Shown: piece by piece, positions 1 through 63,205 of the stretch
How the letters are laid out: each line of letters begins with the position of its first letter
Position numbering within the stretch: position 1 is the stretch's first letter
NCBI GenBank assembly: GCA_016203225.1
Contig: JACQNC010000003.1
Coordinates: 2,537 to 66,536 of the forward strand
Source: Candidatus Woesearchaeota archaeon
GTDB lineage: Archaea > Nanobdellota > Nanobdellia > Woesearchaeales > ARS49
Length of the DNA: 64,000 nt
Direction of reading: 5' to 3'
Notes under the pieces: model-generated
Told to the model about the DNA's origin: nothing
Seen by the model: the letters and a program-made list of their open reading frames with translations, nothing else
Databases searched by the model: none
Position numbers and translations under genes: made by a program

Positions 1-268
1 CGCGTTCCTGATCATAGTCGCCTTGGCCGCGATCGTCATCATCATCGCGTCCCTGCGCAAGATCCTGGAAGAGCACCACACAACGCTGTTCTCTGCGCTG
101 ATCCTCGGCGGCGCCGCAGGGAACCTCATCGACCGCATCGTCTACAAATCAGTTGTCGACTTCTTCGACTTCCACATCTGGCCCGCGTTCAACATCGCTG
201 ACGCGGCATTGACGATCGGCGTGCTGGGATTGATTTGGCTGGCGCTGATCGAGAAGAAGAAGTCTTAA
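1..268 (+). CDS. lspA: Lipoprotein signal peptidase (signal peptidase II), C-terminal part; 5' end outside window
   Basis: The frame of ORF 23..268 stays open to the window edge. Hydrophobic protein with LspA-like motifs [10 protein letters not shown] and [11 protein letters not shown]. Confidence 0.8.
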
Positions 269-705
269 CGGCGCTTCTTGCGCGAAGTCCTCGGCTTGCG
301 CGTCTTCCTTGCGGATCTCGGTGCAGGCTTCGGCACCGGCATGATGTTCTCGAGCTGCATCGGTTCACCATACGGTCGGACGTCGGACACTGCAGAGCGC
401 GTCGCGCAATACAGGAGTCCGAGAGTCATCCAGCCCAAAAGCAAGGCATATTCAAGGAACGCCTCGCGGATGACCCAGTAGACGAGCGTGCTGTCCGCTA
501 TGCTCGCCGCGAAGAAGAGCGTCCCGAGTCCCGCGGTCCAGGAGGCGCCTGAAGCTGTGGCGAATACCATGATCAACCCGATGACGGCGAGCGCGAATAT
601 CACCGCGAGCCCGAGCAGGATGTTGGCATCGAGCAACTGCTCCTGCCACAACAGGCCGAGCAGCGTGACCGCGACAAGAACGACTGCAGCACTGACATTC
701 CTCAT
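265..705 (-). CDS. Hypothetical multi-pass membrane protein with basic C-terminal tail
   Basis: 146-aa ORF with several hydrophobic helices and tail [13 protein letters not shown]. No family recognised. Confidence 0.5.
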
Positions 706-792: not shown

Positions 793-895
793 ACGCGTCC
801 CGGGTTTTCTTACCCAGGCAGGTTTGACGTTCTTTCTTTACCAGAATCGATAGAAACGCGACAATCGTGGCAAAACTCATCACGCAGGGGAATGC
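793..895 (+). repeat. Intergenic palindromic repeat family, copy A (short form)
   Basis: CCCAGGCAGGTTTGACGTT (813-831) is identical to 19282-19300. Central GAATCGATAG, partner arm CGCGACAATCGTGGCA and outer CTCATCACGC are shared with copies C and D. Lies 10 nt beyond the aIF1A stop. Confidence 0.7.
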
Positions 896-905
896 TTACG
901 ATTTT

Positions 906-1256
906 CTAGAATTCGCTGACGTTCTCGAGCGCCTTCAAGAGACCCCTCTTGCGCAGGACTTCAGCCTGGTGAGGGCGGTACTTGAACACGACATCTCCCT
1001 TCGCGTCGCCGCCGAGCTCCCACGGCTCGATCAAAAGGACATCGCCGTCGCGCACCCACAACGAACGCTTCAGCCTGCCCGGGATGCGGCAGATACGCGT
1101 CTTGCCATCCAGGCATCGGACACGCAAGTGGCTGCCGCCCAGGCGCTGCTCGCACACGCCAAGGACCTGGCCCTCGCGCGGCATAGGCGTGCGGCGGACC
1201 TCTTCCTGCATCTGCAGCTGCTTCGCCTCTGCCTGTTCTTTTGGCGTCAAACCCAT
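906..1256 (-). CDS. eif1a: Translation initiation factor aIF-1A (S1/OB fold)
   Basis: 116 aa starting at internal Met of ORF 906..1328. Matches the aIF1A/eIF1A pattern ...VRCLDGKTRICRIPGRLKRSLWVRDGDVLLIEPWE... Confidence 0.9.
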   Translation of the reverse strand: MGLTPKEQAEAKQLQMQEEVRRTPMPREGQVLGVCEQRLGGSHLRVRCLDGKTRICRIPGRLKRSLWVRDGDVLLIEPWELGGDAKGDVVFKYRPHQAEVLRKRGLLKALENVSEF

Positions 1257-1376
1257 ACTCGAGACATTCAAGGGTCGCTTTATAAGGGTTGCGATGGAGT
1301 TGATTCTGGAATAGCTGAAATGCACCATCGCAAAGCATTTATTGCCCTGCCGTTCCCGCCAGATCGGGGTGTTCGT

Positions 1377-2828
1377 ATGGATTATGGAATTCGACTCGCA
1401 GAAATCGCGCTGAAGATCCGCGCAATCAAGTTGAGCCCGGACAAACCGTTCAAGTGGGCGTCGGGATTCTTCATGCCCATCTACAATGACAACCGTCTTC
1501 TGTTGTCCGACGCCGACTATCGGCGACTCGTCTCGGCAGGTTTCTCTGAACTCTTACACAGGAACAAGATCCATGCCGACATCATAGGGGGTACATCGAC
1601 CGCAGGAATCTCGCCAGGCACCACGCTCGCGGACCGGTGCGGACTCCCGTTCATCTACATCCGCGACAAGCCGAAGGACCACGGACTGCGCAACCAGATA
1701 GAGGGAATCGATGCCGAATCCTCGCTTGACGGAAAAGTGGTCATTATCGTGGAAGACCTCATCTCGACGGGCGGCAGTTCGCTCAAGGCCGTGCAAGCGA
1801 CGCGGAACGCCGGCGGCAAAGTCGGCCATATGCTTTCCATCTTCAATTACGGGTTGGATGAGGCAACCAAGCAGTTCGTGGACGCGGAATGCGCCGTCCA
1901 CTCCCTCTTGACCTATGATGTCCTGCTCGGCGTCGCGAAGAAACACGGCTACGCAAGCGCAGCCCAGCTCAAGATGCTGGAAGAATGGCGCAAGGACCCG
2001 TTCGGTTGGGGCGCCAAACACGGGTTCCCGAAAGGCGAACAGAAATCGTTCTCCCAGAAATGGCGCGAGGCCGTCGAGCGCAAGAACTCCATCCTGTGCG
2101 CAGGCCTCGACCCGGCAGAATACGGCCAACGGCCCGACACGTCCCTGCCGCATGGCGCGGACAAGCTCAAATGGTGCCTTGATTTCGTCGACGCGGTCGC
2201 GCCATTCTCGGCGGCGGTCAAGCCTAACAGGAACTACATCAAGGACCTGTCACGCGATGAGACCACCGAACTGGTCAGCAGGATCCACAAGCACGGGATG
2301 GTCGCGATCGACGACAGCAAACTCGCGGACATCGGCGAGACGAACGAGAGCGGATTCTACCACGCAGCGGGCGAAGGGTTCGACGCCGTGACGTTCGCGC
2401 CGTTCGCTGGCAACACCGCCGAGGCGGTCGCGCAGGCGCACGGCAAAGGACTCGGACTCATCCCGTTGGTGCTCATGTCCAACCCCCAGTTCGAGGTCAT
2501 GAAGAACGCCCGTATCCGCGGTCTGCGTGGATTCGAGTACTTCGCGTTCCAAGTTGCGGAATATGGCGCTGATGCCATCGTCATCGGCGCACCAAGCCCC
2601 ACGAACCACGTCAAGGACGAGGAAGTGCGTCGCGTGCGCGAGATCGTGGGCGACTGCACGGTCCTGATGCCCGGCGTCGGCGCGCAAGGCGGCGATGCGA
2701 AGTACATCCTGGATGTATTCGGTGGAAGGAACGTGATCGCGAACGTCGGCAGGGCCATCATGTACGCGCGGAATCCCGCGAAGGAAGCCGCCAAGTATCA
2801 GGGGATGCTGAACGCGTTGCGGAAGTGA
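1377..2828 (+). CDS. pyrEF: Fused orotate phosphoribosyltransferase / OMP decarboxylase (UMP-synthase-like PyrE-PyrF)
   Basis: The N-terminal ~190 aa carry the PRPP-binding loop VVIIVEDLISTGGS. The C-terminal ~280 aa carry OMPdecase motifs ILCAGLDP and DDSKLADIGETN. ATG 1377 is chosen because the upstream part of ORF 867..2828 overlaps aIF1A on the other strand. Confidence 0.85.
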   Translation: MDYGIRLAEIALKIRAIKLSPDKPFKWASGFFMPIYNDNRLLLSDADYRRLVSAGFSELLHRNKIHADIIGGTSTAGISPGTTLADRCGLPFIYIRDKPKDHGLRNQIEGIDAESSLDGKVVIIVEDLISTGGSSLKAVQATRNAGGKVGHMLSIFNYGLDEATKQFVDAECAVHSLLTYDVLLGVAKKHGYASAAQLKMLEEWRKDPFGWGAKHGFPKGEQKSFSQKWREAVERKNSILCAGLDPAEYGQRPDTSLPHGADKLKWCLDFVDAVAPFSAAVKPNRNYIKDLSRDETTELVSRIHKHGMVAIDDSKLADIGETNESGFYHAAGEGFDAVTFAPFAGNTAEAVAQAHGKGLGLIPLVLMSNPQFEVMKNARIRGLRGFEYFAFQVAEYGADAIVIGAPSPTNHVKDEEVRRVREIVGDCTVLMPGVGAQGGDAKYILDVFGGRNVIANVGRAIMYARNPAKEAAKYQGMLNALRK

Positions 2829-15581: not shown

Positions 15582-18467
15582 TCAGACACCGTTTCTTGAA
15601 CGGATGACGAAAAATCCCATCATGACGCCAGCCAGCGCGATTAGCAAGGTCCACGTGCTGAACTCGGGAACGCCTATCGCGGTGATCGTGACGGTATCGT
15701 TCGCGGTGAGTGTGTCGAAACCGGCTGCCGCGCAGGTCACGTTCCAGTCCGTGGTGCCTGAACCCCCATAGGTCTTCGTCGTCTTGTACGCGCCGTTGAT
15801 CGCGCTGTACGTCATCGACTGGGCAGTGCTGTCGACCCCGAAGCTCGCGTTGCACGAAGCACCCAGGATGTCAAAACCCGAAGTGCCGTTGTAGTAGTCC
15901 CCGAAGAACTCGATCGTGTCTCCCGGGTACTGGGTCGTGCTATCGGTCTCGTCGTAGATAGTGAGATTGGTGGTCGAGTTGCCCGAAGAGCTGAACCCTG
16001 TGAAGTGGCTCACGTTGAACACCAACGTGCCGCCAACATCGCTGAGCTTGGTGCACACGCTCGCGGGGCAGTCAACGAACGTCCCGTCATCCTCGAAATC
16101 GATAAGCGGCATGTTTGCGGTGGTCGTAAGCCCGATGAATGTGATGTTCGCGGACGTGTTGAGCCCGGCCTGGCTACTCGCATTGACCGAAACCAGCTGC
16201 GTGCCAAGCCGCACGTTCCTGCTGAGGTTCCCAACGACCGCGGTGAACGATGTCCAGGCGACTCGCGCGACAGATCGGTTCTCCAGAGTGATCCGCGACG
16301 CGCTCCCATAGACGCTGCCCGCGTCCTCGAAAGATGCGCTGTAGATGATGTGCAAGCGCGCGCCGACCGCCGCGAGGCTAGTGTTCCTGAACATGAGACG
16401 CGTGGCGTTGAGAGTCACAGAATAGCTGGCGTTGAGGGTGATGTTCCCCTGGACAGTCGCGTTGCCGAAGGTGAGGTTCGTGAACGCCAATGCGAGATTG
16501 GGCGCGTAATGATTGCCTATGACCACGCACTCCTTGTCAGGCGAACCGGTAGTGCAGAGCGAGCCGATGGCGTTGTTGACAGCGATAGTGCCGTCTTCTG
16601 CCTGGTAGGCTGTCGCGAGCCCCGCTCCTATGTTGCCGAGGCTCTGCATTGTTCCTGTGAAGTTGCTGGTGGTGTACGTGATTGAGATGCGGCCGCCACC
16701 TGCGCCTCCGCCGCCGTTGCCTGCCGCGAGACCTGTCCCGCCCGTGCCACCGTTAGCCATGATCAGACCGTTCCCTGCGAGCGTCGATGCCTGGATGAAG
16801 ATCGAACCTCCAGAACCGCCACCGCCTCCGTTGCCAGAACCATCGCTTCCGCCCGTCGAACCGTTCGAAACGATGAGACCGTTCACGGTCAGGACACTCG
16901 ACAGGTTCATATGGATGAACCCGCCACCGGTGCCTCCGAGACCGCTCCCGCCACCGGAACCGCCGCCGCTGCCGAGCACGGCCGGAGCGGTCGCGCTCCC
17001 ATAGCTCAATCCACCGAAAGTTCCCGACCCGCTCTGAGCGCCGGTGCCGCCAAAACCCGCACCGCCCGCTCCTCCGCTTCCTGACTCGGAGGTATTGATG
17101 CCTCGTCCAGGACCGTTCGCGGATGTGAGGCCGCGTCCGGTCGTCGAGAGGTTCGCGAGTGCCGCGATGGTCATGTTAGTCATGATGACCGTGATGTTCT
17201 GCGCAGCCATCGTGCCCGAGAGCGTGAACGTCCCATTACCAGCCGTCGCCCGCCTTACGTTGATCACGGTCGGCACGCTCACGGCGCCTTGGACCGTGCC
17301 GTTGACGATGAGAGCGTCATCGGTGAGGTTCAGGATGGTGCCGCTGCCGAGCGAGGTGTTGCCGGAAAGGATCAACGATGACAGCGAGTACGACGCGATG
17401 CTGATGATGACGTTCGTGCCGACCGAGAGGTGACCTCCTGAACGCTGCTCGAACCTGCTCGCGTTAATCGATATCCTGTACGAGTTGTTGATCGACAGGG
17501 ACGCGCTGTCCGCGGAGGTATTGCCGATGGTGACGTTCGCGAACGTCATGTTCTCGTTCGGCAGCAGGTGCGTGCCGGTGATCGTGCAGGTCTTGTCGGG
17601 GCTTCCTTGCGCGCACGAGATCCCTCCTTTGTTGTTCACTGCGACCGAACCGTCTTCTGCCTGATAGGCCGTCGCGAGCCCTGCTCCTATGTTGCCGAAG
17701 CTCCGAGTGGTGCCGGTGAACGTAGAAGTCGTGTAGATCATGGCGATGCGGCCTCCGCCACCGCCACCGCCACCATTACCTGCCGCAGCGCCTGTTCCGC
17801 CTGTTCCGCCGTTGGTCATGATGAGTCCGTTGCCAGCGAGCGTCGATGCCTGGATGAAGATCGAACCTCCAGAACCGCCACCGCCGCCATTATCAGAACC
17901 GGTGTTGCCTCCAGCAGATCCGTTCGCAGTTACCGTGCCTAGGATCGTCAGCGTGCCGGAGACATTCAACAGGATGGCACCGCCACCTGCCCCGCCGACG
18001 CCGCTTCCGCCGCCGGTGCCGCCGCCGCTGCCGAGCGATGCAGGAGCCGTCGTGTTTCCGTAAGCGATACCGGCAGGCGTCCCTGACGCGCTCTGTGCGC
18101 CTGCGCCCCCGTAGCCTGCGCCGCCGGCTCCTGCGCTTCCTGATTCTGCGGTGTCAATTCCCTGGCCAGGGCCCGTCGACGCGCCGAACCCTTGTCCGTT
18201 CGCGGTGAGCGTTCCGTTGATCGTCATCGTGTTGGCGATGATTTCCACTCCCGGGAAACCGGATGCGCCCGTGTCACCTTGCGCAGTCACGGTAGCGCTG
18301 GCGTTGATGACGAGGATGTCGTACGTGAACGTGCCAGCCGCGAGCGTGCAGCTGTCATTTATCGTCACGTTGCCTGACGTCGGACAGGTCGTTTGACCGA
18401 GAACAGGGACCGAGGACAGGATTCCTATGAGAAGCAAGAGCCCGAAACGCGCATGGAACTTATTCAT
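15582..18467 (-). CDS. Large Gly-rich beta-helix-like surface protein with PEF-CTERM sorting signal
   Basis: 961 aa from Met at 18467, with signal peptide MNKFHARFGLLLLIGILSSVPVLG. Two ~353-aa tandem repeats with GGGGGSGGSIFIQASTLAGNGLI. Many N-x-S/T sequons. C-terminus GVPEFSTWTLLIALAGVMMGFFVIRSRNGV. Confidence 0.85.
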   Translation of the reverse strand: MNKFHARFGLLLLIGILSSVPVLGQTTCPTSGNVTINDSCTLAAGTFTYDILVINASATVTAQGDTGASGFPGVEIIANTMTINGTLTANGQGFGASTGPGQGIDTAESGSAGAGGAGYGGAGAQSASGTPAGIAYGNTTAPASLGSGGGTGGGSGVGGAGGGAILLNVSGTLTILGTVTANGSAGGNTGSDNGGGGGSGGSIFIQASTLAGNGLIMTNGGTGGTGAAAGNGGGGGGGGRIAMIYTTSTFTGTTRSFGNIGAGLATAYQAEDGSVAVNNKGGISCAQGSPDKTCTITGTHLLPNENMTFANVTIGNTSADSASLSINNSYRISINASRFEQRSGGHLSVGTNVIISIASYSLSSLILSGNTSLGSGTILNLTDDALIVNGTVQGAVSVPTVINVRRATAGNGTFTLSGTMAAQNITVIMTNMTIAALANLSTTGRGLTSANGPGRGINTSESGSGGAGGAGFGGTGAQSGSGTFGGLSYGSATAPAVLGSGGGSGGGSGLGGTGGGFIHMNLSSVLTVNGLIVSNGSTGGSDGSGNGGGGGSGGSIFIQASTLAGNGLIMANGGTGGTGLAAGNGGGGAGGGRISITYTTSNFTGTMQSLGNIGAGLATAYQAEDGTIAVNNAIGSLCTTGSPDKECVVIGNHYAPNLALAFTNLTFGNATVQGNITLNASYSVTLNATRLMFRNTSLAAVGARLHIIYSASFEDAGSVYGSASRITLENRSVARVAWTSFTAVVGNLSRNVRLGTQLVSVNASSQAGLNTSANITFIGLTTTANMPLIDFEDDGTFVDCPASVCTKLSDVGGTLVFNVSHFTGFSSSGNSTTNLTIYDETDSTTQYPGDTIEFFGDYYNGTSGFDILGASCNASFGVDSTAQSMTYSAINGAYKTTKTYGGSGTTDWNVTCAAAGFDTLTANDTVTITAIGVPEFSTWTLLIALAGVMMGFFVIRSRNGV

Positions 18468-19278: not shown

Positions 19279-19409
19279 GTTCCCAGGCAGGTTTGACGTT
19301 GTTTTATCGGTATTGATTCGATACGAGCCGAGTCCAGCAGGCTCGGCTGTACCGCAGAACGCTGCGTTCTGCAGGTAGCCAATACCCCCGCACCAATCTG
19401 CTTGGGAAC
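19279..19409 (+). repeat. Intergenic palindromic repeat family, copy B (long form, archetype)
   Basis: Terminal inverted repeats GTTCCCAGGCAGGTTTG (19279-19295) and CAATCTGCTTGGGAAC (19394-19409). Internal hairpins at 19325-19348 and 19353-19371. Starts 19 nt after the trmB stop. Confidence 0.75.
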
Positions 19410-19580
19410 GCGGAGCTTGGCCGCACGTGTCAACGGCATTTCTTTTCTCTACGCAAAAAATCACTACGCAGTGAACTGAAGCGACTGCTGCGGTAATCGC
19501 ATCAAAAACAGTACGATTGCACAACCGCAATGCATATAAATCATTAAAAAGTGATGCATTGTGGTACCAAAAGAGGTGCG

Positions 19581-19598
19581 ACCACAATCTGTTGTGGT
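19581..19598. promoter_or_regulatory. NrdR-box-like palindrome ACCACAA-TCTG-TTGTGGT
   Basis: By hand alignment, 12 of 16 central positions fit the bacterial NrdR-box consensus acaCwAtATaTwGtgt. Lies upstream of nrdR-nrdJ. Confidence 0.5.
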
Positions 19599-19639
19599 TT
19601 TTCCATCGTCGGCATCGTCGGTGGCTCTCGCGGTATCGC

Positions 19640-19655
19640 GCACAATACCTTGTGC
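19640..19655. promoter_or_regulatory. NrdR-box-like palindrome GCACAA-TACC-TTGTGC
   Basis: 12/16 fit to the NrdR-box consensus by hand alignment. Lies 26 nt upstream of the nrdR ATG. Confidence 0.5.
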
Positions 19656-19680
19656 ATCAAAAAAGAGACCATGAAGTGAA

Positions 19681-20145: not shown

Positions 20146-24297
<4,152 letters not shown>

Positions 24298-30547: not shown

Positions 30548-32650
30548 ATGGCCAGACTTTCCCAAGTCCGCAAGCGCGACGGTTCTCTCGAAGACTTCCA
30601 GCCTCAAAAAATCCAGGAAGCCATCCACAAAGCGCTCCAAGCCGTGAAAGGCAAGGACGGCAAGCTCGCGAAAAAGCTCGCGGACCAGGTCGTGCAGAAC
30701 CTCGAGCGCCACTTCTCCAGCAAAATCATCCCCTCTGTCGAGGACGTGCAGGACATCGTCGAAGAGACGATGATTAGGAACAAGTTGTCCGATGTCGCGA
30801 AGGCGTTCATCCTATACCGCCAGCAGCACAAGGACGTGCGCGAGTTCAAGACGTTCCTAGGTGTGCGCGACGAGCTGAAGCTCTCGCCGAACGCGATCAA
30901 GGTTCTCGCGCGGCGCTACCTGTTGCGCAACGAGGAAGGCAGCATCATCGAGACTCCCGCGCGGTTGTTCAGGCGCGTCGCGAAAGCAGTCGCGGCCGTC
31001 GAGCGCACATACGATCCAAAGACGAACGTGCAGAAGGTCGAGGACTCGTTCTACAAGCTCATGAGCGAGCTCGACTTCCTGCCGAACACGCCCACGCTCA
31101 TGAACGCCGGCACGCAGCTCGGGCAGCTATCCGCGTGCTTCGTAATCCCTGTCGGTGATTCGCTCCTCGAGATCTTCGATGCTGTCAAGCACATGGCCAT
31201 CATCCACCAAAGCGGTGGCGGGACCGGCTTCTCGTTCTCGCGCCTGCGGCCGAAAGGCGACCTCGTCAAGAGCACGAAAGGCGTCGCTTCGGGACCGGTG
31301 AGCTTCATGCGCATCTTCGACACGACGACTGACGTCATCAAGCAAGGCGGCAAGCGCAGAGGCGCCAACATGGGCATACTCAGGTGCGACCATCCGGACA
31401 TCCTGGAATTCATCAACGCCAAGACGCACGAGGGCTGGCTGACCAACTTCAATGTCTCTGTCGCGGTCACGGACAAATTCATGCAGGCCGTCGACAAGAA
31501 CCTCGAGTACGACCTGATCAATCCGCGCTCGGGAAGGGTCACGGGCAAGCTCAAGGCGAAGGAGGTGTTCGAGCTCATCTGCGCGAACGCCTGGCGCACC
31601 GCCGATCCGGGTCTGATCTTCATCGACGAGATAAACCGCAAGAACCCCACTTCCGCGATGGGGACTATCGAGAGCACGAACCCTTGCGGAGAAGTGCCAT
31701 TGCACCCGTACGAAGCGTGCAACCTCGGCAGCATCAATGTCGCGAGGTTCGTGCGCAACGGAAAGCCCGAATGGGAGCGCCTGCAGAAGGCGATAAAGAC
31801 TGCGGTGCACTTCCTCGACAACGTCATCGACGCGAACAAGTACCCGCTGCCCGAGATCGAGGCTGTCGTGAAGTCCAACAGACGCATCGGGTTGGGCATC
31901 ATGGGTTTCGCAGAGATGCTGATCAGGCTCAACATCCCGTACGACTCCAACAAGGCGCTCGAGTTCGCCGAGAGACTCATGAAGTTCCTCAACGACGAGG
32001 CGCGCAAGTGTTCGAACGAGCTGGCGAAGCGCGGCAGCTTCCCTAACTTCGACAGGAGCGTCTGGAGCAAGGATAAGAGGACCGCGAAAGGGACGCGCAA
32101 CGCGACCGTGACGACGATCGCGCCGACGGGAACGATCTCCATCATCGCGAACGCGACGTCGGGGATCGAGCCGCTGTTCGCTGTCACTTTCGTACGTGAG
32201 GTCATGGAGGGCACGCACCTGCTCGAGGTCAACCCCGTGTTCGAGGACGTCGCGAAGAAGCGCGGGTTCTACTCAAAGGGGTTGATGATGAAGATCGCGC
32301 GCAGAGGAAGCGTGCAGGGCCTGAAGGAGGTCCCTAAAGACGTGCAACGCGTGTTCGTCACGGCGCTGGATATCGATCCCGAATGGCACGTGAATATCCA
32401 AGCTGCGTTCCAGAAGTCCTGCGACAATGCTGTCTCGAAAACGATCAATCTCGAAGAGAAAGCCACTATCGAGGACGTGCGCAAGGCGTATCTGGCCGCA
32501 TACAAACTGAAATGCAAGGGCATCACGGTCTATCGGTATGGTTCTAAGAAGGAACAGGTGCTCTACATCGGCAAGACTCCTGACGAGGAGCACGTCGCCG
32601 CCACGTCAGAGTTCGCCGGCGGCTGCCCTGGTGTCGAGTGCGTACACTAG
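30548..32650 (+). CDS. nrdJ: Adenosylcobalamin-dependent (class II) ribonucleotide reductase with N-terminal ATP-cone, intein-free paralog
   Basis: ATP-cone VRKRDGSLEDFQPQKI and active site STNPCGEVPLHPYEACNLGSINV. 700 aa. Confidence 0.9.
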   Translation: MARLSQVRKRDGSLEDFQPQKIQEAIHKALQAVKGKDGKLAKKLADQVVQNLERHFSSKIIPSVEDVQDIVEETMIRNKLSDVAKAFILYRQQHKDVREFKTFLGVRDELKLSPNAIKVLARRYLLRNEEGSIIETPARLFRRVAKAVAAVERTYDPKTNVQKVEDSFYKLMSELDFLPNTPTLMNAGTQLGQLSACFVIPVGDSLLEIFDAVKHMAIIHQSGGGTGFSFSRLRPKGDLVKSTKGVASGPVSFMRIFDTTTDVIKQGGKRRGANMGILRCDHPDILEFINAKTHEGWLTNFNVSVAVTDKFMQAVDKNLEYDLINPRSGRVTGKLKAKEVFELICANAWRTADPGLIFIDEINRKNPTSAMGTIESTNPCGEVPLHPYEACNLGSINVARFVRNGKPEWERLQKAIKTAVHFLDNVIDANKYPLPEIEAVVKSNRRIGLGIMGFAEMLIRLNIPYDSNKALEFAERLMKFLNDEARKCSNELAKRGSFPNFDRSVWSKDKRTAKGTRNATVTTIAPTGTISIIANATSGIEPLFAVTFVREVMEGTHLLEVNPVFEDVAKKRGFYSKGLMMKIARRGSVQGLKEVPKDVQRVFVTALDIDPEWHVNIQAAFQKSCDNAVSKTINLEEKATIEDVRKAYLAAYKLKCKGITVYRYGSKKEQVLYIGKTPDEEHVAATSEFAGGCPGVECVH

Positions 32651-32680
32651 CGTCCCCCCTGGCTTTTCTTCAGCACATCG

Positions 32681-32827
32681 CTCCCCAGGCAGGTTCGAGT
32701 CGCTTTTGGCTCTGGATTCGATAGAAGTAAAGCTACGTCAATCGTGCTTGGGCTCCTGCCGAATCCAGCAGGTTCGGCGGAGCAGCAGAATGCTGAGGCG
32801 TTCTGCATGCTCATCACGCTTGGGAAC
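32681..32827 (+). repeat. Intergenic palindromic repeat family, copy C (composite long form)
   Basis: Inner palindrome at 32684-32752 (CCCAGGCAGGTTCGAGTCGC...CGTCAATCGTGCTTGGG). Hairpins follow at 32752-32781 and ~32784-32808. Ends CTCATCACGCTTGGGAAC. Starts 31 nt after the nrdJ2 stop. Confidence 0.75.
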
Positions 32828-45864: not shown

Positions 45865-46542
45865 TCAAATAAAGAACTTCGCAATAACCAGACCCATCAG
45901 TACGCCAGCCATGAGGCCGAGGATGTATGGCAGCATGTGGCGCTGGATGTCCTTCTGGACGGTCTCTGGCACTGTGACCTCTGGAGCGGATTCGGGTTCT
46001 GTCGGGTCGGGCGTGGTCGGCTCGGGCATCGCGACAGGCTCCACGACCTTGCGGTGTAACAGCGCCTCGAATTCGTCGTCGTTGGGCACAGCCTGTTCGA
46101 AGAGCGGCTTGGTGCCGCGGATGCGCTGCCGGATCTCGTCGTCGGACGGCAGCGGAGGGAGAGGCGCGACCGCAGGCACGGGTTCCTTCGACTGGGGCAG
46201 TTTCGCGATCTCCTTCAGGTTCGTTATGGTCCTCTTGTGCGCGGCCTTGCGCTTCTCGGTCGTGCCGTGCTCGAGCTGCTTGATGCGGCGCTCGACGACA
46301 TTCGCCATGGCTTTCTTGTCCTGCACCTGCGCCAGCTGCATCGCGAGCTCCTCGTCCTTGACGATGTGGTAAATCCAGTTGTAGAAGTCGTTCTTTGCGT
46401 CGTTGACGTGGTGCTTGAACTGGCCGTCGCTCAGCCTGCGCAGTTCGCGTTCTAGATCGTACAGGTTCCTGAGCTTCGGGCCGTCCTTCACCGCGAATGC
46501 GTGATCGGGATGCACGTCCCTCAATGCAGGATGGTGTCTCAT
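45865..46542 (-). CDS. Paralog 1 of a small conserved-domain family, with Pro-rich linker and C-terminal TM anchor
   Basis: N-terminal domain FAVKDGPKLRNLYDLERELRRLSDGQFKHHVNDAKNDFYNWI is shared with 46539..46883 and 49227..49517. C-terminus MLPYILGLMAGVLMGLVIAKFFI. Confidence 0.65.
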   Translation of the reverse strand: MRHHPALRDVHPDHAFAVKDGPKLRNLYDLERELRRLSDGQFKHHVNDAKNDFYNWIYHIVKDEELAMQLAQVQDKKAMANVVERRIKQLEHGTTEKRKAAHKRTITNLKEIAKLPQSKEPVPAVAPLPPLPSDDEIRQRIRGTKPLFEQAVPNDDEFEALLHRKVVEPVAMPEPTTPDPTEPESAPEVTVPETVQKDIQRHMLPYILGLMAGVLMGLVIAKFFI

Positions 46543-46883
46543 TGTGCGAGTCTCTGGAGTTCGCGCACTACATGCTTCAGCACGGCGCGCTGCGTGTCGA
46601 TGCGGTTCTTGATCAGCCTGAGTTCGTTCGCCAAGGGCTCGTCGTTGAACACGCCCTCGATCCAGTTGGCGAAGTCGTTCTTGGAATCGTTTACGTAGTC
46701 CTTGAAGAGCCCGTCGTTCATGGTCTCGAGCTCATCGATGAGTTCGTACAAGGTGCGCAGCTTGCGGCCGTCCTTCAATACGAACGTCTTCTCTTCAGGG
46801 GCCTTGCCGAGCGTCTTGATGGTGATTATGGCTTGCGCTGGCGAGTCCTTCTTCGCGAGCGCTGTATGCTTTTTCGCCTTCAT
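46539..46883 (-). CDS. Paralog 2 of the small conserved-domain family
   Basis: FVLKDGRKLRTLYELIDELETMNDGLFKDYVNDSKNDFANWI. ATGA overlap with paralog 1. Confidence 0.65.
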   Translation of the reverse strand: MKAKKHTALAKKDSPAQAIITIKTLGKAPEEKTFVLKDGRKLRTLYELIDELETMNDGLFKDYVNDSKNDFANWIEGVFNDEPLANELRLIKNRIDTQRAVLKHVVRELQRLAQ

Positions 46884-46958
46884 CCCATCACCCTTTTTCC
46901 TCTGTTTGAGATTGCGTCATTTTTAAATGCTTCGTCATTGACCGATAGACGTTCTGAT

Positions 46959-49055
46959 TCATATCCCTCTCCTCGCCCTGATCACGAAGAACCCGATCAG
47001 CACTCCTGCCAATGCGATAAAGAGCGTCCACGTGCTGAACTCAGGCACACCTATCGCGGCGATCGTGACAGTATCATTCGCCGTGAGCGTGTCGAAACCG
47101 GCTGCCGCGCAGGTCACGTTCCAGTCGGTCGTGCCGGGCGAACCGTAGAGCTTAGTCGTCTTGTAAGAGCCGATAAACGCGCTATAAGTCATGCTCTGCG
47201 TGGTGCTGTCAACACCGAAGCTCGCGTTGCAACTCGCGCCAAGGATGTCATAACCAGACGAACCGTTGAAATAATCCGCGAAGAACTCTACAGTGTCACC
47301 GGTGTACTGCGTCGTGCTGTCGGTCTCGTCGAATATGGTGAGGTTGGTGAGCGTTCCGCTAGTGCTGCCGAAACTGAACCCCGTGAAGTGGCTCACGTTG
47401 AACGTGAAGAGATTGTTGGTGAAGCTCTGTTCCGTGCAGAGCTCCGCGGAGCACGTCACGAAAGTGCCGTTATCGTTGATATCTACGGTAGGGAAGGGAT
47501 CCGTGACGCCCTGGCCTGAGAGGTTCAGCGCGATGGTCGCGCTCACGTTCAGGAACGTCAGGTTAGTCGAGTTCAGGGAGGTACGGTCCGCGGATACGTT
47601 GAGCTTCGCGAGCGTGACGTTCACGAACGCGGGAGCAGTTACGCGCGGCACGATCGTCAAGGTCGCGTTGCTCCGCAAGAACACGGTCATTGTAAAGTTA
47701 TTCAGATTGCTGTTGTTCGTCGCGAGCCAGGACGAGTTCGTAGACAAGGTCGTGTTCGTGAAGCTGTTGTTCTGCGATGATGCCAACAACAGCAACGCCC
47801 CGCTCCTGCCGCTCGAGAAATTGTTGCCGGTGAAGAGGGCATAGCTCACATTACTGAGCTGGATACCTGGACCATTGACCGCTGACACGCGATTGTTTGT
47901 GAACACTGCTCTCCACGATCTCGTCAAGCTCACAGCAGTCCCGTTCTGCGAGCTCACAACGTTGCCGCTGAACGTGTTGTTATACGCATCGCTCAGCGAT
48001 ATCCCTATACCGGTGGAGTTCGCGGTCAAGATATTATTTGATAGGGTGTTATTGTTGCTGGAAACCAACGTAACCGGTCCGGTTGACGTGACTGTGTTAC
48101 CGGTGAGCACGTTAAGATTGCTGTTAACTGTCAGGATGATCAGTTGCACAACATTGTCGATGATCGAGTTGACGCTACTTGACTGGAGGTTGATAAAGCC
48201 TGACGATCCAGTCGCGGTGCTGTTACGCACCGTTGTGTTTGATGTCGTGATAAATATCATCTGTGCATCGTTCGCCCTATTGAATTCGATGACGCTCATG
48301 TTCGCGTCAGTGGCATAGACACCGACGCCCGAGTTAGCGCCTCCTGAACTCACGTTGTTGCCCGTAATGTTCAAACTTAGCGACGTCGCCGTAATGAGCC
48401 CAGAACCTAGCCCGGAAGACCCAGAGCCAGCACCGCCATCACCGCCACCATCACCGCCATTGCCAGACAACACATTATTGATGACTTTGGTCCCGCTCGA
48501 GTTCGTGAGCCTGATGCCTGCGCCTTCGCCGCCGTCCCCTCCAGGGCTTCCTTCGTCGCCAAGAGTGCCCATCGCGCCGTGTCCGTACAGCGTGTTAATG
48601 CTGATAGTGTTATTATTACTGGAAATGATTTGGACGCCATAACCGGAAGCGCCCGAAGCTGAAGCCGCGAAGCCCTCCGCTGTCGCCGTGTTGTTCCGTA
48701 TCGTGCCATTGTTCGCGCCGGTCTGGAATCTCACACCTATCTGCCAGTCCGTGAACCTGCAACCGGTGACCGTGACATTATCAAACCCGGTATTGGTGAC
48801 ACCGTACTCTGAGGAAACATTATTGCCATCGACCACGTGCCCTTGGCAATCGAGCCGGACATTATCCGCACCGATCGTGAAGCATCCAACCGCGATGCTG
48901 GTCAGGTCTGTCGTGAGTTCACTGTTGACCGAAATCGTACCGCACGAACTGATAGAGACAGCGATGGCAAAACCAGCCATACTCGCGCCGATCGCGAGCG
49001 CGACTGCGAGGAACGCCAGAGCTCTAGCTTTCGTCATCGTAACCGCCTTTTTCAT
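46959..49055 (-). CDS. Right-handed beta-helix (NosD/pectate-lyase-like repeats) surface protein with PEF-CTERM sorting signal
   Basis: 698 aa. Repetitive N-x-S/T-rich beta-helix repeats (NNTISINTL, NNVLSGNGG, GNNVSSGG). The C-terminal ~160 aa are homologous to the 15582..18467 product. C-terminus GVPEFSTWTLFIALAGVLIGFFVIRARRGI. Confidence 0.85.
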   Translation of the reverse strand: MKKAVTMTKARALAFLAVALAIGASMAGFAIAVSISSCGTISVNSELTTDLTSIAVGCFTIGADNVRLDCQGHVVDGNNVSSEYGVTNTGFDNVTVTGCRFTDWQIGVRFQTGANNGTIRNNTATAEGFAASASGASGYGVQIISSNNNTISINTLYGHGAMGTLGDEGSPGGDGGEGAGIRLTNSSGTKVINNVLSGNGGDGGGDGGAGSGSSGLGSGLITATSLSLNITGNNVSSGGANSGVGVYATDANMSVIEFNRANDAQMIFITTSNTTVRNSTATGSSGFINLQSSSVNSIIDNVVQLIILTVNSNLNVLTGNTVTSTGPVTLVSSNNNTLSNNILTANSTGIGISLSDAYNNTFSGNVVSSQNGTAVSLTRSWRAVFTNNRVSAVNGPGIQLSNVSYALFTGNNFSSGRSGALLLLASSQNNSFTNTTLSTNSSWLATNNSNLNNFTMTVFLRSNATLTIVPRVTAPAFVNVTLAKLNVSADRTSLNSTNLTFLNVSATIALNLSGQGVTDPFPTVDINDNGTFVTCSAELCTEQSFTNNLFTFNVSHFTGFSFGSTSGTLTNLTIFDETDSTTQYTGDTVEFFADYFNGSSGYDILGASCNASFGVDSTTQSMTYSAFIGSYKTTKLYGSPGTTDWNVTCAAAGFDTLTANDTVTIAAIGVPEFSTWTLFIALAGVLIGFFVIRARRGI

Positions 49056-49102
49056 CTGTTTGATATCGCGTCATTTTTGACTCTTCATCGGGATATCCGC
49101 TG

Positions 49103-49216
49103 CAGTCCCAGGCGTGATGAGTCCCAGGCACGATTGACGTGGCTTCATCGGCGCTGATTCGATAGCTATCAAGCCAGACTCAAACCTGCCGGGGTTTGCA
49201 AATCCGGGGAACGCGT
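49103..49216 (-). repeat. Intergenic palindromic repeat family, copy D (reverse orientation)
   Basis: GCGTGATGAG, CCCAGGCACGATTGACG (49123-49139), GATTCGATAG, CAAACCTGCCGGGG (49181-49194) and GGGGAACGCGT. Collinear with the reverse complement of copy A. Confidence 0.7.
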
Positions 49217-49226
49217 CAATGTCCAT

Positions 49227-49517
49227 TCAGTGCCTCAGTGCCAGGCCCCGCAGCCGTTGCGCGACCTTCTGCGCGGTCTGGATGCGGCCTTGTGCCCTGT
49301 CGAAGTCCCGTGCCAGCTTGTCGTCAGAGAAGACGTGCTGCACCCAGTTCTTGAAATGGTTGCCGTCCTTATTGACGTGGTGGTCGAACGTAGCGTCATC
49401 CATGCGCTTCAGCCCGTCCAGCAGGTCCGCGTAGCCGCGGAACACCTGGCCGTTGGCCGCCTTGAACGCCTTGCTGTCAGGGCACGGACGCAACAGCGGC
49501 GTTGTTTTTCCTTTCAT
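49227..49517 (-). CDS. Paralog 3 of the small conserved-domain family
   Basis: FKAANGQVFRGYADLLDGLKRMDDATFDHHVNKDGNHFKNWV. Lies immediately downstream of GH57. Confidence 0.65.
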   Translation of the reverse strand: MKGKTTPLLRPCPDSKAFKAANGQVFRGYADLLDGLKRMDDATFDHHVNKDGNHFKNWVQHVFSDDKLARDFDRAQGRIQTAQKVAQRLRGLALRH

Positions 49518-50725: not shown

Positions 50726-51934
50726 TCATCTCCTCCGTTTCTTCATGAGCGTCCCGTACAGGTTGAGGACCTCGTGCGCAGGCTTGTCCCACGTGATGTT
50801 CGCGACCTCGTTGCGGCCCTGCAGTCCGAGCTCGTCCTGCAGTTCCTTGTAGTACAGCACCCCGAGGATCTTGTTGGCCATCGCGTGCACGTCCCAGAAG
50901 TCTACCTTCAGGCAGTGCTTGACGACTTCGCTCACCCCGGACTGTTTGCTGATGATGACAGGCGTCCCGTTCCGCATCGCTTCCAAAGGCGTGATTCCGA
51001 ACGGCTCGCTGACGGACGGCATGACATATACATCCGCCATCTTGTACGCGCGGTCGATGTCCTTGCCCGTGAGGAAGCCCGTGAACAGCATCTTGCCCGC
51101 GAGCCCGAGCTCGGCTGCCTTCTCGATGATCTTCGGCTCCATGTCTCCAGAGCCGGCCATGATGAATTTCGCGCGCGGCTCCTTCTCAAGCACCTTCTTC
51201 GCGGCGTACAGGAACCAATCAGGGCCCTTTTGCAGCGTGATGCGTCCGAGGAAGAGCACGACCTTGTCTGTCTTGCCCAGTTTCGGCTGCTCGACAGGCT
51301 CTGTGAATTCGACGGCGTTGTGGACTGCCATGATCTTTTCAGGATCGATGCCATAGTTCGCGACGACCTTCTCTTTCGTGAAGTTGCTCACCGGCACGAC
51401 AGCATCTGCGTTTTCGAAGCCGAGCTTCTCGATGCCGTACACGTGCTGGTTGATGCTGTTGCCGCCGGTCCGGTCGAACTCTGTCGCGTGCACGTGGACG
51501 ACCAACGGCTTTCCTGACACGGCTTTCGCGTTGATGCCTGCCTGGTACGTCATCCAGTCGTGGCTGTGGATGACGTCGTGCGGGATCTTGGCTGCGAGTT
51601 CTTTCGCGGCCTCTGCGTAGCGTTGCACCTCTGCGAAGAGCGTGTTGCCGTACAGCGCGGCCGCCTGCGGGTTGCGCTTCTTCCAGAGCTCGTAGGACTC
51701 GGATGACGCGTACGCCGTGAGCGGTTCTGTCTTGAATTTCAAAAGTTTGTTCTGTCTCCTGTCTGCGGAGATGAGCTTGACGCCAGGTACGGTTATTCCG
51801 TCAGGCACGCGGGGCAGCACGAACGTCACGTCAGCGCCTTGCGCGACCATGGCTTTTACGAGGCCAGCGCATGCGACGCCCAAACCTCCGGAGTAGACCG
51901 GCGCGAACTCCCAGCCGAACATGAGGACCTTCAT
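50726..51934 (-). CDS. Glycosyltransferase (GT4/GT5-like, archaeal/bacterial glycogen-synthase type)
   Basis: N-terminus KVLMFGWEFAPVYSGGLGV and E-x7-E region PSVSEPFGITPLEAMRNGTPVI. Confidence 0.8.
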   Translation of the reverse strand: MKVLMFGWEFAPVYSGGLGVACAGLVKAMVAQGADVTFVLPRVPDGITVPGVKLISADRRQNKLLKFKTEPLTAYASSESYELWKKRNPQAAALYGNTLFAEVQRYAEAAKELAAKIPHDVIHSHDWMTYQAGINAKAVSGKPLVVHVHATEFDRTGGNSINQHVYGIEKLGFENADAVVPVSNFTKEKVVANYGIDPEKIMAVHNAVEFTEPVEQPKLGKTDKVVLFLGRITLQKGPDWFLYAAKKVLEKEPRAKFIMAGSGDMEPKIIEKAAELGLAGKMLFTGFLTGKDIDRAYKMADVYVMPSVSEPFGITPLEAMRNGTPVIISKQSGVSEVVKHCLKVDFWDVHAMANKILGVLYYKELQDELGLQGRNEVANITWDKPAHEVLNLYGTLMKKRRR

Positions 51935-56478: not shown

Positions 56479-56542
56479 TGTCGAATGTTTTTATATGCTG
56501 TTCTGCACGTTCCGTCCATGAACCCGCGATACTCTTCTGCGT

Positions 56543-56645
56543 CCCCCGGTGCGATGTGCACAAGCAGGTTTGTGTCGCTTCTGGCTTTGGATTCAATAGC
56601 ACTGGAGCGACGTCAATCGTGCCTGGGAAGCATTGCCGGGGACGA
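56543..56645 (+). repeat. Intergenic palindromic repeat family, copy E (short form)
   Basis: AAGCAGGTTTGTGTCGC (56562-56578), GGATTCAATAG and GCGACGTCAATCGTGCCTGGG (to 56627). Lies between the ATPase stop and the GT3 start. Confidence 0.7.
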
Positions 56646-60940: not shown

Positions 60941-61010
60941 CACGCCTCTTTTCATTCCTGACAAGTTGACAAACGTTTTTAAATGCATCGCTCTGTTGCT
61001 CTGCTGAAAG

Positions 61011-62803: not shown

Positions 62804-62959
62804 ATGGTCAAAGAGGCGAAGCACAAAGGCAAACGCGTCTTCGTCTGCGAGCGCTGCGGATTCAGGTTCTTGGAGAAGAAGTGGGCGGGCGCGTGCGAGG
62901 ACTGGGAGAGGACGCACCTGTCGTGCAACCGAGAGGTCGTCAAGCACGCGTTGAAATGA
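62804..62959 (+). CDS. Small Cys-rich protein (51 aa), below the ORF-track length cut-off
   Basis: Own translation: MVKEAKHKGKRVFVCERCGFRFLEKKWAGACEDWERTHLSCNREVVKHALK. CxxC plus further Cys/His suggests a metal-binding ribbon. Confidence 0.4.
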   Translation: MVKEAKHKGKRVFVCERCGFRFLEKKWAGACEDWERTHLSCNREVVKHALK

Positions 62960-62964
62960 GAGTC

Positions 62965-63082
62965 GTTTTACAAGCACATGCAGAACGAAACGTTCTGCTG
63001 TGCAGCCGAGCCTACTGGACTCGGCTTGCATCGCATCTATAGACTTGAAGCATCCACCAACCTGCCTGGGTGCTCCCCTGTT
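62965..63082 (-). repeat. Intergenic palindromic repeat family, copy F1 (long form, reverse orientation)
   Basis: GCAGAACGAAACGTTCTGC and AGCCGAGCCTACTGGACTCGGCT hairpins, then CCAACCTGCCTGGG (63057-63070). Collinear with the reverse complement of copy B. Confidence 0.65.
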
Positions 63083-63104
63083 ATTGCCGTCCCCATTCGT
63101 TTCT

Positions 63105-63179
63105 CCCCCGGCAGTTTTGACGCGGCTTTAGCGCAATCGATTCGAAAGCAGAAATGCAACTACAAATCTGCTTGGGCAC
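63105..63179 (+). repeat. Intergenic palindromic repeat family, copy F2 (short form)
   Basis: CCCCCGGCAGTTTTGACGCG, CGATTCGAAAG and CAAATCTGCTTGGGCAC. Ends 27 nt from the copA stop. Confidence 0.65.
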
Positions 63180-63205
63180 GCAAATCACGGGAGCGCAGAG
63201 AAACG

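What the first reader, a model, noticed from the sequence alone, without database searches (positions are those of the whole stretch)
19279..19409. Dispersed imperfect-palindromic intergenic repeat family, at least 7 copies in 64 kb, always beside gene 3' ends
Copies lie at 793-895, 19279-19409, 32681-32827, 49103-49216, 56543-56645, 62965-63082 and 63105-63179. They share inverted termini (GTTCCCAGGCAGGTTTGACG ... CAATCTGCTTGGGAAC) and a near-palindromic core GATTCGATAG. Long forms add two conserved hairpins (GCAGAACGC..GCGTTCTGC and AGCCGAG..CTCGGCT). A 19-mer is identical between 813-831 and 19282-19300. Every copy starts 0-65 nt from a stop codon, and both orientations occur. This resembles bacterial REP/MITE-like elements, or possibly a small-RNA or terminator family. 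I do not recognise it as a known family.
Basis: seen in the sequence. Interest (0 to 1): 0.8.

Follow-up and report, generated by a model that had tools for sequence, protein, structure and literature searches.

The report
Mosaic MITE-like repeats in a Woesearchaeon
The seven repeats are real and are small non-coding, probably mobile, inverted-repeat DNA elements of a DPANN (Woesearchaeota-type) archaeon, a known kind of selfish DNA; three copies carry a two-hairpin module whose structure is conserved across related genomes.

Summary
A profile built from the copies finds exactly the seven reported sites and nothing else in the window. All seven are intergenic.

The host is a Woesearchaeota-like DPANN archaeon, not a bacterium.

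Each element is a mosaic with these parts:
- a loop with GATTCGATAG;
- in three copies (c2, c3, c6), a nested double hairpin, H1-H2.

Evidence for mobility:
- A sister genome (80-90% nt identity) has copies where the window has clean empty sites, and the reverse.
- At the focal site the sister has a short form and the window has the long form.
- Short-read contigs break inside copies.
- More distant relatives lack the focal copy but carry diverged family members.

The arms behave like transposon ends: they show no within-copy co-variation and no strand bias. H1-H2 behaves like a selected single-strand structure: 102/102 cells pair and 8/17 pairs have compensatory changes.

There is no Rfam, tRNA, REP-tag, plasmid or phage match. 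No transposase is in the window and no clear target-site duplication was found.

Verdict: a new member of a known kind (MITE-like). The "3'-end" rule is not a targeting rule, because one copy lies between a conserved TATA box and its start codon. Interest is moderate.

The parts
797..896 (+). Copy c1, short form: outer-left motif GTCCCGGGTTTTCTTA, inner-left arm CCCAGGCAGGTTTGACG, loop with GAATCGATAG, degenerate inner-right arm CGACAATCGTGGCAAA, outer-right motif ACTCATCACGCAGGGGAA. It lies about 9 nt 3' of the stop of the aIF-1A-like gene (906..1256, minus strand) and upstream of the promoter of gene 265..705 (minus strand).
   Evidence: (E 2.8e-14)
19279..19409 (+). Copy c2, the focal copy, long form: left arm 19279-19298, core GATTCGATAC 19315-19324, hairpin H1 19326-19348, hairpin H2 19354-19372, right arm 19391-19409. 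It lies 18 nt after the TrmB stop (19260) and upstream of the conserved nrdR promoter (TATA at about 19527-19550).
   Evidence: (MFE -60.2, z -5.3)
32652..32827 (+). Copy c3, longest form: outer-left 32652-32672, inner-left arm 32683-32699, core 32715-32724, inner-right arm 32736-32752, H1 32757-32779, H2 32785-32806, outer-right TCATCACGCTTGGGAAC 32811-32827. It starts 2 nt after the stop of the class I-type ribonucleotide reductase gene (30548..32650).
   Evidence: (E 1.2e-22)
49103..49218 (-). Copy c4, short form with all four motifs. It lies between the stop of the 96-aa gene (49227..49517, minus strand) and the start of the NosD/beta-helix gene (46959..49055, minus strand). The core GATTCGATAG is inverted relative to the arms.
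   Evidence: (E 2.7e-18)
56541..56645 (+). Copy c5, short form folding into a ~100-nt hairpin. It lies between the conserved TATA box of glycogen synthase (56484-56498) and the gene's start codon (56652 as called for a 595-aa product; ATG at 56673), so it is probably in the 5' UTR. The same site is occupied in L028 and L033.
   Evidence: E 3.4e-20; z -3.9
62965..63073 (-). Copy c6, long form of the c2 type: left arm 63055-63072, H1 63004-63026, H2 62980-62998, degenerate right end. It lies 5 nt after the stop of a 51-aa zinc-ribbon gene (62804..62959, plus strand) and head-to-head with c7.
   Evidence: (I1: 79% over 95 nt with c2)
63088..63197 (+). Copy c7, short form, lying 8-26 nt from the stop of the minus-strand P-type ATPase-like gene (63206..). 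Together with c6 it fills a convergent intergenic region.
   Evidence: (E 5.6e-18)
61003..61004 (.). Empty site. In the sister genome (L028 about 4541-4660) a ~115-nt family copy, ACGTTGCGACCGTCCCCGG...CCTGGGGTGCAACGT, is inserted here, between the glxK TATA box (60974-60986) and its ATG (61011).
51931..51934 (-). Empty site. In the window two genes overlap on ATGA here. In the sister genome (L032 1957-2059) a precise 103-nt insertion carrying H1-H2 separates them, with ATGA on both sides.

Best explanation
The seven copies belong to a family of small (about 100-175 nt), non-coding, non-autonomous mobile elements of the MITE kind. The family lives in one clade of Woesearchaeota-like DPANN archaea.

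Anatomy. Each element is bounded by nested imperfect inverted repeats built from one ~17-nt motif, CCCAGGCAGGTTTGAS, plus a variant, CCCAGGCGTGATGAG. Inference: this motif is the binding site of a transposase supplied in trans from elsewhere in the genome. Some copies carry a nested 52-nt double hairpin, H1-H2, which also occurs on its own and inserts on its own.

Shown:
- Copies appear and disappear between close relatives.
- Copies change internal modules at a single site.
- In the window they survive only in intergenic DNA, mostly just after stop codons.

Inferred:
- The intergenic distribution reflects tolerance, not targeting.
- Because copies lie inside transcription units (3' UTRs, and at least one 5' UTR), their hairpins are probably co-transcribed and may alter mRNA stability or translation as a side effect.
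- The H1-H2 stems are kept paired on one strand. This points to a role as single-stranded nucleic acid, either RNA or transposition-intermediate DNA.
For: Family is real and intergenic:
- Seven copies found, all in the 12.7% of the window that is intergenic.
- No ORF and no Pfam transposase in 40 window ORFs.

Mobility:
- The focal site is empty in two relatives, L002 and L005, that keep the TrmB-NrdR-RNR synteny and the nrdR promoter.
- The sister genome SRR32573209 (80-90% nt identity) has a copy at the glxK promoter where the window is empty.
- It has a copy upstream of the CBS gene where the window is empty.
- It has a precise 103-nt H1-H2 insertion at an ATGA gene junction.
- It has a short form where the window has the long c2 form.
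- It lacks c6/c7.
- Logan contigs L001 and L032 end inside copies.

Arms behave like transposon ends:
- Each arm resembles the family consensus as much as it resembles its own partner (0.64 against 0.67).
- G.U-type and A.C-type mismatches are 12:12.
- RNAalifold gives 0 compensatory pairs.
- c1, c4 and c7 are no more stable than shuffled sequence.

Taxonomic spread:
- Diverged members occur in relatives at 73-74% amino-acid identity, L033 and L034.
- L029 has H1-H2 enclosed by arms.

Literature:
- A MITE census lists a Woesearchaeal genome at 105 MITEs/Mb, among the densest in archaea (PMC11602168). The window has 7 copies in 64 kb, which is 109/Mb.
Against: - No target-site duplication of 5 nt or more flanks any window copy. 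The two polymorphic insertions show only a possible 2-bp TG and a 4-bp ATGA.
- No autonomous partner with the same ends was found. The rest of the genome could not be searched.
- Copies are 60-82% alike, so most are old, and current activity is not shown.
- Two sites are occupied in genomes that are only about 73% identical in protein (the glycogen synthase 5' region and the region downstream of NrdA). This could mean retention by selection rather than neutrality.
- H1-H2 shows strong structural selection, which a purely selfish TIR element does not need.
Confidence: 0.7

Rival explanations
1. The elements are mobilised as single-stranded DNA hairpins by a Y1 (IS200/IS605 TnpA or RAYT-type) transposase. 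On this view they are REP/REPIN- or PATE-like elements rather than TIR/DDE-type MITEs, H1-H2 are the recognition hairpins, and the arms are secondary.
For: - H1-H2 is 100% paired in 6 copies from 4 genomes. 8 of 17 pairs have compensatory changes, and all 6 wobble cells are G.T on the same strand, so the hairpins are strand-specific.
- H1-H2 inserts on its own.
- There is no clear target-site duplication, as expected for this transposase class.
- c6 and c7 form a head-to-head pair.
- A preprint reports K07491 (REP-associated tyrosine transposase) as the only transposase KO with strict hits in 256 Nanobdellota proteomes (10.64898/2026.05.13.725050).
Against: - H1 and H2 are unrelated in sequence to each other.
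- There is no GTAG/CGTC-tagged 20-40-nt unit (PMC3733652).
- The family is defined by 17-nt inverted terminal motifs, which IS200/IS605 elements lack.
- Four of the seven window copies have no H1-H2.
- No Y1 transposase or TnpB was found in the window.
Confidence: 0.2
2. The copies exist because they act at the RNA level in cis: 3'-UTR hairpins that stop exonucleases or help termination, or 5'-UTR regulators. On this view they spread or persist for that reason.
For: - All copies lie inside probable transcription units, 2-64 nt after stop codons.
- c2, c5 and c6 are much more stable than shuffled sequence, with z from -3.5 to -5.3.
- H1-H2 covaries and its wobbles fit one strand.
- That strand is the sense strand of the upstream gene in c2, c3, L029 and L032.
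- The glycogen synthase 5' site is occupied in three diverged genomes.
Against: - Orientation of whole elements relative to the nearest gene is mixed: sense for c2-c5, antisense for c1, c6 and c7.
- c1, c4 and c7 fold no better than shuffled sequence.
- The arms show no covariation or strand bias.
- There is no consistent U-tract after the hairpins.
- The L002 H1-H2 copy is antisense to both neighbouring genes.
- Close relatives do without particular copies.
Confidence: 0.15
3. They are independent small-RNA genes, for example C/D-box-like guides or another structured ncRNA family.
For: - The reverse strand of the outer-right motif reads GTGATGA (C-box-like) in c1, c3 and c4.
- The H1-H2 structure is conserved.
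Against: - There is no conserved D box and no promoter-like TATA box inside the copies.
- GTGATGA is absent from c2, c5, c6 and c7.
- There is no Rfam match even at E<=5.
- ARAGORN finds no tRNA-like gene.
- Module content varies from copy to copy.
Confidence: 0.04
4. The 17-nt motif is the operator of a host DNA-binding protein (a regulon or chromatin site), not a mobile-element end.
For: - The motif is conserved at sequence level on both arms.
- Several neighbouring genes are in nucleotide or glycogen metabolism.
- Three solitary high-scoring motifs lie inside genes.
Against: - Most copies lie downstream of stop codons and upstream of the next promoter, not at promoters.
- Sites are gained and lost between close relatives.
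- Orthologous regulatory DNA next to c2 is about 98% conserved while the element itself is rearranged.
Confidence: 0.04

Closest known systems
Prokaryotic MITEs (miniature inverted-repeat transposable elements), including the archaeal MITEs catalogued by MITE-Tracker in PMC11602168
   Same: - Size of 100-175 nt with no coding capacity.
- Imperfect terminal inverted repeats.
- Many dispersed intergenic copies in both orientations.
- Lineage-restricted distribution.
- Presence/absence polymorphism between related genomes.
- Density of about 109/Mb, which equals the 105/Mb reported for a Woesearchaeal genome.
   Different: - No clear target-site duplication.
- No cognate IS identified.
- Nested (double) inverted repeats.
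- A cargo of two covarying hairpins.
ERIC/IRU (RU-1) and similar ~127-bp imperfect-palindrome repeats of enterobacteria, as described in the abstract of PMC2759123 and in general knowledge
   Same: - Imperfect palindromes of about 100-130 nt in transcribed intergenic regions.
- Either orientation occurs.
- Short and long forms are produced by internal deletions or insertions at fixed internal sites.
   Different: The resemblance is an analogy only. No direct sequence comparison with ERIC was run, and the host domain is different. ERIC copies are highly conserved across genera, whereas these diverge quickly.
REP/BIME/REPIN elements with RAYT transposases (PMC3733652, PMC2817692, PMC3116915)
   Same: - Extragenic position, mostly downstream of genes.
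- Head-to-head pairs (c6/c7).
- Hairpins with compensatory changes (H1, H2).
- CGTC begins the inner-right arm (CGTCAATCG...).
   Different: - No 20-40-nt self-complementary unit with an unpaired GTAG/CGTC tag, 8-9-bp stem, 4-5-nt loop and CCA tail.
- The arms are 35-110 nt apart.
- No RAYT gene was seen.
IS200/IS605-derived non-autonomous elements (PATE-like) and TnpB omega-RNA-bearing ends
   Same: Strand-specific subterminal hairpins, no obvious duplication, and common occurrence in archaea.
   Different: Those elements lack terminal inverted repeats. No TnpA or TnpB was found in the window. H1-H2 is only 52 nt.

Membership tests
MITE | Small (<~500 bp) with no coding capacity | tested here: met
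   Copies are 100-176 nt. They contain no ORF with coding potential.
MITE | Terminal inverted repeats | tested here: met
   The ~17-nt arms CCCAGGCAGGTTTGAS and their complements are present in every copy, often doubled. They are imperfect: own-pair identity is about 0.64.
MITE | Target-site duplication flanking each copy | tested here: inconclusive
   No direct repeat of 5 nt or more at any window copy. Polymorphic insertions show at most TG (L028) and ATGA (L032). The copies are old and diverged.
MITE | Multiple dispersed copies, with insertion polymorphism between related genomes | tested here: met
   There are 7 copies in the window and at least 5 in 18 kb of the sister genome. Empty and filled sites are documented.
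MITE | A related autonomous IS with the same ends supplying transposase | not testable with these tools
   None was found among 40 window ORFs.
REP / BIME / REPIN | A 20-40-nt palindromic unit with an unpaired GTAG or CGTC tag (for CGTC REPs: 8-9-bp stem, 4-5-nt loop; PMC3733652) | tested here: not met
   The arms are not self-complementary and lie 35-110 nt apart. H1 and H2 have no such tag.
REP / BIME / REPIN | Associated RAYT (Y1 transposase) gene | tested here: inconclusive
   Absent from the window (Pfam). The genome-wide state is unknown. RAYT-type genes are reported in the phylum.
Curated RNA family (Rfam 15) | Match to a covariance model | tested here: not met
   0 matches at gathering thresholds. 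At E<=5 there are only two unrelated weak hits elsewhere in the window.
tRNA-derived SINE/MITE | tRNA-like sequence or structure | tested here: not met
   ARAGORN finds no tRNA or tmRNA in the window. Only a loose resemblance of GATTCGA to a T-loop complement was seen.
Intrinsic-terminator-like element | GC-rich hairpin followed directly by a T/U run, oriented with the upstream gene | tested here: not met
   By reading the sequences, T-runs are absent or 8-75 nt away. Orientation is mixed: 4 sense and 3 antisense.
Archaeal C/D-box sRNA | Conserved C (RUGAUGA) and D (CUGA) boxes with 12-nt guides | tested here: not met
   GTGATGA is found only in c1, c3 and c4 (reverse strand). CTGA at a D-box position is found only in c4. 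The only C/D-box-type hit in Rfam (sR1) is a weak one elsewhere in the window.

The most novel reading that the evidence does not exclude
The H1-H2 double hairpin, alone or closed by the arms into a three-way junction as in c2 and L029, is a previously undescribed functional single-stranded nucleic-acid motif of Woesearchaeales. It could be a cis-acting RNA that host genes have co-opted, for example the structured leader kept between the TATA box and start codon of glycogen synthase in three diverged genomes, or 3'-end protection. Alternatively it could be the recognition structure of a new archaeal hairpin-dependent transposition system that hitch-hikes inside TIR elements.
Probability: 0.2. 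Interest if true: 0.6.

Novelty: new member of a known kind. Interest (0 to 1): 0.36.

Why it matters
DPANN archaea have very small, gene-dense genomes, so a repeat family occupying about 1.3% of this window (109 copies/Mb) is a notable load.

It matters in three practical ways:
- It is a source of rapid promoter and UTR change. Copies sit between TATA boxes and start codons of glycogen synthase here and of glycerate kinase in the sister genome.
- It breaks short-read assemblies of these uncultured organisms. Two Logan contigs end inside copies.
- It gives a strain-level marker.

The covarying H1-H2 module is the one part that could be more than selfish DNA.

None of this overturns current understanding. 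MITE-rich Woesearchaeal genomes have already been counted in a census (PMC11602168), although I found no paper that describes this family's anatomy.

Tried and rejected
- **Public DNA scans.** The strict two-arm pattern GCAGGTTYG N{28,58} CAATCGTGCYTGG returned only single chance hits in unrelated bacteria: 8 in GTDB genomes, 12 in JGI metagenomes and 1 in IMG/VR. The pattern later proved too narrow, because diverged members exist in L033 and L034.
- **Rfam.** No match to any copy at gathering thresholds or at E<=5.
- **tRNA origin.** ARAGORN found nothing.
- **C/D-box idea.** GTGATGA plus a 12-nt spacer appears in c4, but the boxes are not conserved across copies.
- **Archaeal origin-recognition-box idea.** The H1 loop reads TCCAGTGG in L002, but the loop varies between copies.
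- **CGTC-tagged REP idea.** Rejected after reading PMC3733652, because the geometry is wrong.
- **Target-site duplication search.** Nothing of 5 nt or more.
- **RNAalifold on five short forms.** A weak consensus of -5.2 kcal/mol with no compensatory pairs.
- **BLAST of c2 against plasmids and phages.** No match.
- **Viral scans.** Scans for H1 and for generalised arms gave nothing or unrelated perfect palindromes.
- **Covariance model R1 of H1-H2.** It found no copies beyond its six training sequences in about 229 kb of Woesearchaeal DNA.
- **Supplement of the MITE census.** It is not held, so I could not check whether these exact sequences are already listed.

Full report

Yes. Reading the seven stated regions shows a shared left arm, CCCAGGCAGGTTTGACG, and a complementary right arm. 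The right arm reads CGTCAATCGTGCCTGGG or CAATCTGCTTGGGAAC. A loop with GATTCGATAG, or a close variant, lies between them.

- The 20-mer terminus with up to 3 mismatches occurs 3 times against 0.01 expected.
- An nhmmer profile built from five copies recovers exactly the seven sites (E 1e-22 to 4e-4) and nothing else below E=0.05.
- Pairwise identities are 60-82%.
- The identical 19-mer at 813-831 and 19282-19300 is present.
- The hairpins H1 (GCCGAGtccagcaGGCTCGGC) and H2 (GCAGAACGnnnCGTTCTGC) occur in c2, c3 and c6 only.

**2. Host and gene context**

TrmB homologues name the host as a Woesearchaeota/Nanoarchaeota-type DPANN archaeon. The window is 57.6% GC.

I built a codon-usage gene map. 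It was checked with Pfam and with the gene calls of syntenic contigs. On this map 12.7% of the window is intergenic, and all seven copies lie in that fraction.

- Five copies are in co-directional intergenic regions.
- Two (c6 and c7, head-to-head) are in one convergent region.
- None is in the seven divergent regions of 100 nt or more. That absence is not significant on its own (0.78^7 is about 0.17).
- Every copy lies 2-64 nt from a stop codon. For c1 the relevant gene is a minus-strand aIF-1A gene (906..1256).

Relative to the nearest upstream gene, c2-c5 are sense and c1, c6 and c7 are antisense. There is therefore no orientation rule.

c5 lies downstream of a TATA box (AATGTTTTTATATGC, 56484-56498). 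That box is conserved upstream of glycogen synthase in five genomes. Where the element is absent, the box sits about 24 nt from the ATG (L030). c5 is therefore most likely inside a 5' leader. This last step is an inference.

**3. Anatomy**

The elements are mosaics. The outer pair is a variant, CCCAGGCGTGATGAG or its complement TCATCACGCYTGGGAC.

- The short forms are c1, c4, c5 and c7.
- c3 adds H1-H2 between the inner-right and outer-right motifs.
- c2 and c6 have H1-H2 in place of the inner-right arm.
- A position-weight scan finds the motif at all copies, plus three solitary sites inside genes.

**4. Relatives and mobility**

*Distant relatives at the focal site.* Two relatives with about 75% TrmB identity (L002 = GCA_964550175.1, and L005) keep the TrmB-NrdR-RNR order and the nrdR promoter. 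They have no element after TrmB.

*The sister genome.* This is Logan SRR32573209, loci L028, L031 and L032. It is 80-90% identical to the window in genes and is the most informative comparison.

- It has copies at the c2, c4 and c5 sites. At the c2 site it carries a short form where the window has the long form, while the adjacent nrdR regulatory DNA is about 98% identical.
- It has a ~115-nt copy between the TATA box and ATG of glxK, where the window has an 80-nt intergenic region with no element.
- Its contig L032 begins inside a copy upstream of the CBS gene, where the window's intergenic region is empty.
- It lacks c6 and c7.
- It has a precise 103-nt insertion carrying H1-H2 at a point where the window's two genes overlap on ATGA. 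ATGA is present on both sides of the insert.

*Assembly breaks.* The same-strain Logan contig L001 stops 27 nt into c2.

*Wider spread.*

- Diverged arm-type copies (CCCCGGCAGTTTTGTCG) occur in intergenic regions of L033 (JGI 3300006865) and L034 (GCA_041488275.1). These include the glycogen synthase 5' site and the region downstream of NrdA.
- H1-H2 occurs in L029, closed by arms CCCAGTAG/CTACTGGG, and in L002/L030.

The family is therefore older and wider than the window's species, and it turns over between close relatives.

**5. DNA ends or RNA helix?**

*The arms* give no sign of selection for pairing.

- RNAalifold on five short forms gives 11 pairs, -5.2 kcal/mol and 0 compensatory pairs.
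- c1, c4 and c7 fold no better than shuffled sequence.
- Across 13 copies, an arm is no more similar to its own partner (0.64) than to partners of other copies (0.67).
- G.U-type and A.C-type mismatches are equal, 12:12.

This is what independently decaying transposon ends look like.

*H1-H2* is the opposite. In six copies from four genomes:

- all 102 cells pair;
- 8 of 17 pairs show changes on both sides;
- no shuffle of 500 reaches the observed values;
- slid controls pair at 23-43%;
- the six wobble cells are all G.U on the same strand.

Caveat: I chose and aligned these six sequences with the structure in view, and they are few.

The strand on which H1-H2 pairs is the sense strand of the upstream gene in c2, c3, L029 and L032. 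It is ambiguous for c6 and antisense in L002.

**6. Comparison with known kinds**

- There is no Rfam match, no tRNA-like gene, and no plasmid or phage similarity.
- The geometry of GTAG/CGTC REPs (PMC3733652) is not met.
- The best fit is a MITE. Size, lack of coding, inverted ends, copy number, intergenic position and insertion polymorphism are all met.
- Target-site duplication is unclear, and a cognate transposase could not be sought beyond the window.
- The long/short mosaic structure recalls ERIC-type repeats. This comparison rests on my own knowledge and the abstract of PMC2759123.
- A census of prokaryotic MITEs already reports a Woesearchaeal genome at 105 MITEs/Mb (PMC11602168). The window's density is 109/Mb. 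I could not check whether it is the same genome, because the supplements are not held.
- A 2026 preprint reports the REP-associated tyrosine transposase KO as the only transposase KO with strict hits in Nanobdellota proteomes. This keeps the hairpin-driven rival alive.

**7. Verdict**

This is a real family of MITE-like mosaic repeats in a DPANN archaeon: a new member of a known kind. The sub-claims about 3' ends, a small RNA or a terminator are not supported for the element as a whole. The nested H1-H2 hairpin pair is the part that deserves follow-up.

Noticed in passing
window 21310-22398 (within gene 20146..24297): The class II (B12-dependent) ribonucleotide reductase carries an intein with a LAGLIDADG domain (1383 aa, against 1015-1023 aa in relatives). 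The 1,089-nt segment is precisely absent from the sister genome L031 (alignment jumps from window 21309 to 22399), so the intein is polymorphic between close relatives.
   Followed up: partly
window 19431-19680; L031 1666-1923; L002 10706-10939; L005 10790-10967: The region upstream of the archaeal NrdR-like gene is about 98% identical to the sister genome and is recognisable in relatives at 75% identity. It holds a TATA-like box (GCAATGCATATAAATCATTAAAAA) and a palindrome, ACCACAATCTGTTGTGGT, that looks like an NrdR box. It is a candidate autoregulatory operator in a DPANN archaeon.
   Followed up: no
window 56484-56498 and orthologous positions in L028, L029, L030, L033: The TATA box (A/C)AATGTTTTTATA of glycogen synthase, placed just after the stop of the upstream P-type ATPase gene, is conserved in five genomes. 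The distance to the start codon is about 24 nt without the element and about 170 nt with it.
   Followed up: partly
window 14533-14549 (+), 42421-42437 (-), 44299-44315 (-): Three solitary, high-scoring (about 17.5 bits) copies of the 17-nt arm motif lie inside coding regions, for example GTCCCAGGCAGTTTTGGTG and CGACAATCGCGCCTGGGGACG. Roughly 0.5 would be expected by chance. They may be remnants or coincidence.
   Followed up: partly
window 46880-46924 and 49034-49078: A 45-nt direct repeat (82% identity) spans the start codons and the DNA immediately upstream of two neighbouring minus-strand genes (46539..46883 and the NosD/beta-helix gene 46959..49055). This suggests a duplicated promoter or leader.
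   Followed up: no
window 15582-15881 vs 46959-47258; 16572-16867 vs 17631-17926: The two large surface-type proteins (about 1050 aa and 698 aa) share a 300-nt stretch at 77% identity at their 3' ends. The larger one has an internal 1,059-nt tandem duplication rich in Gly-coding GCC/ACC repeats.
   Followed up: no
window 55695-55766 vs 63489-63560: A 72-nt inverted repeat (83% complementary) lies within two P-type ATPase-like genes on opposite strands. It is most simply explained as similarity between paralogous coding sequences rather than as a structural element.
   Followed up: no
window 3825-3828; L030 6353-6404: In the window the S49 peptidase and DUF192 genes overlap on ATGA. In GCA_964550175.1 an H1-H2 module lies between these two genes, about 140 nt of sequence before the likely true DUF192 start, and the gene caller extended DUF192 by 46 codons through it. 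This could mislead annotation.
   Followed up: partly
window 1377-2828: A fused orotate phosphoribosyltransferase and OMP decarboxylase (pyrE-pyrF) ORF. The longest mechanical ORF (867..2828) overlaps the real minus-strand aIF-1A gene.
   Followed up: no
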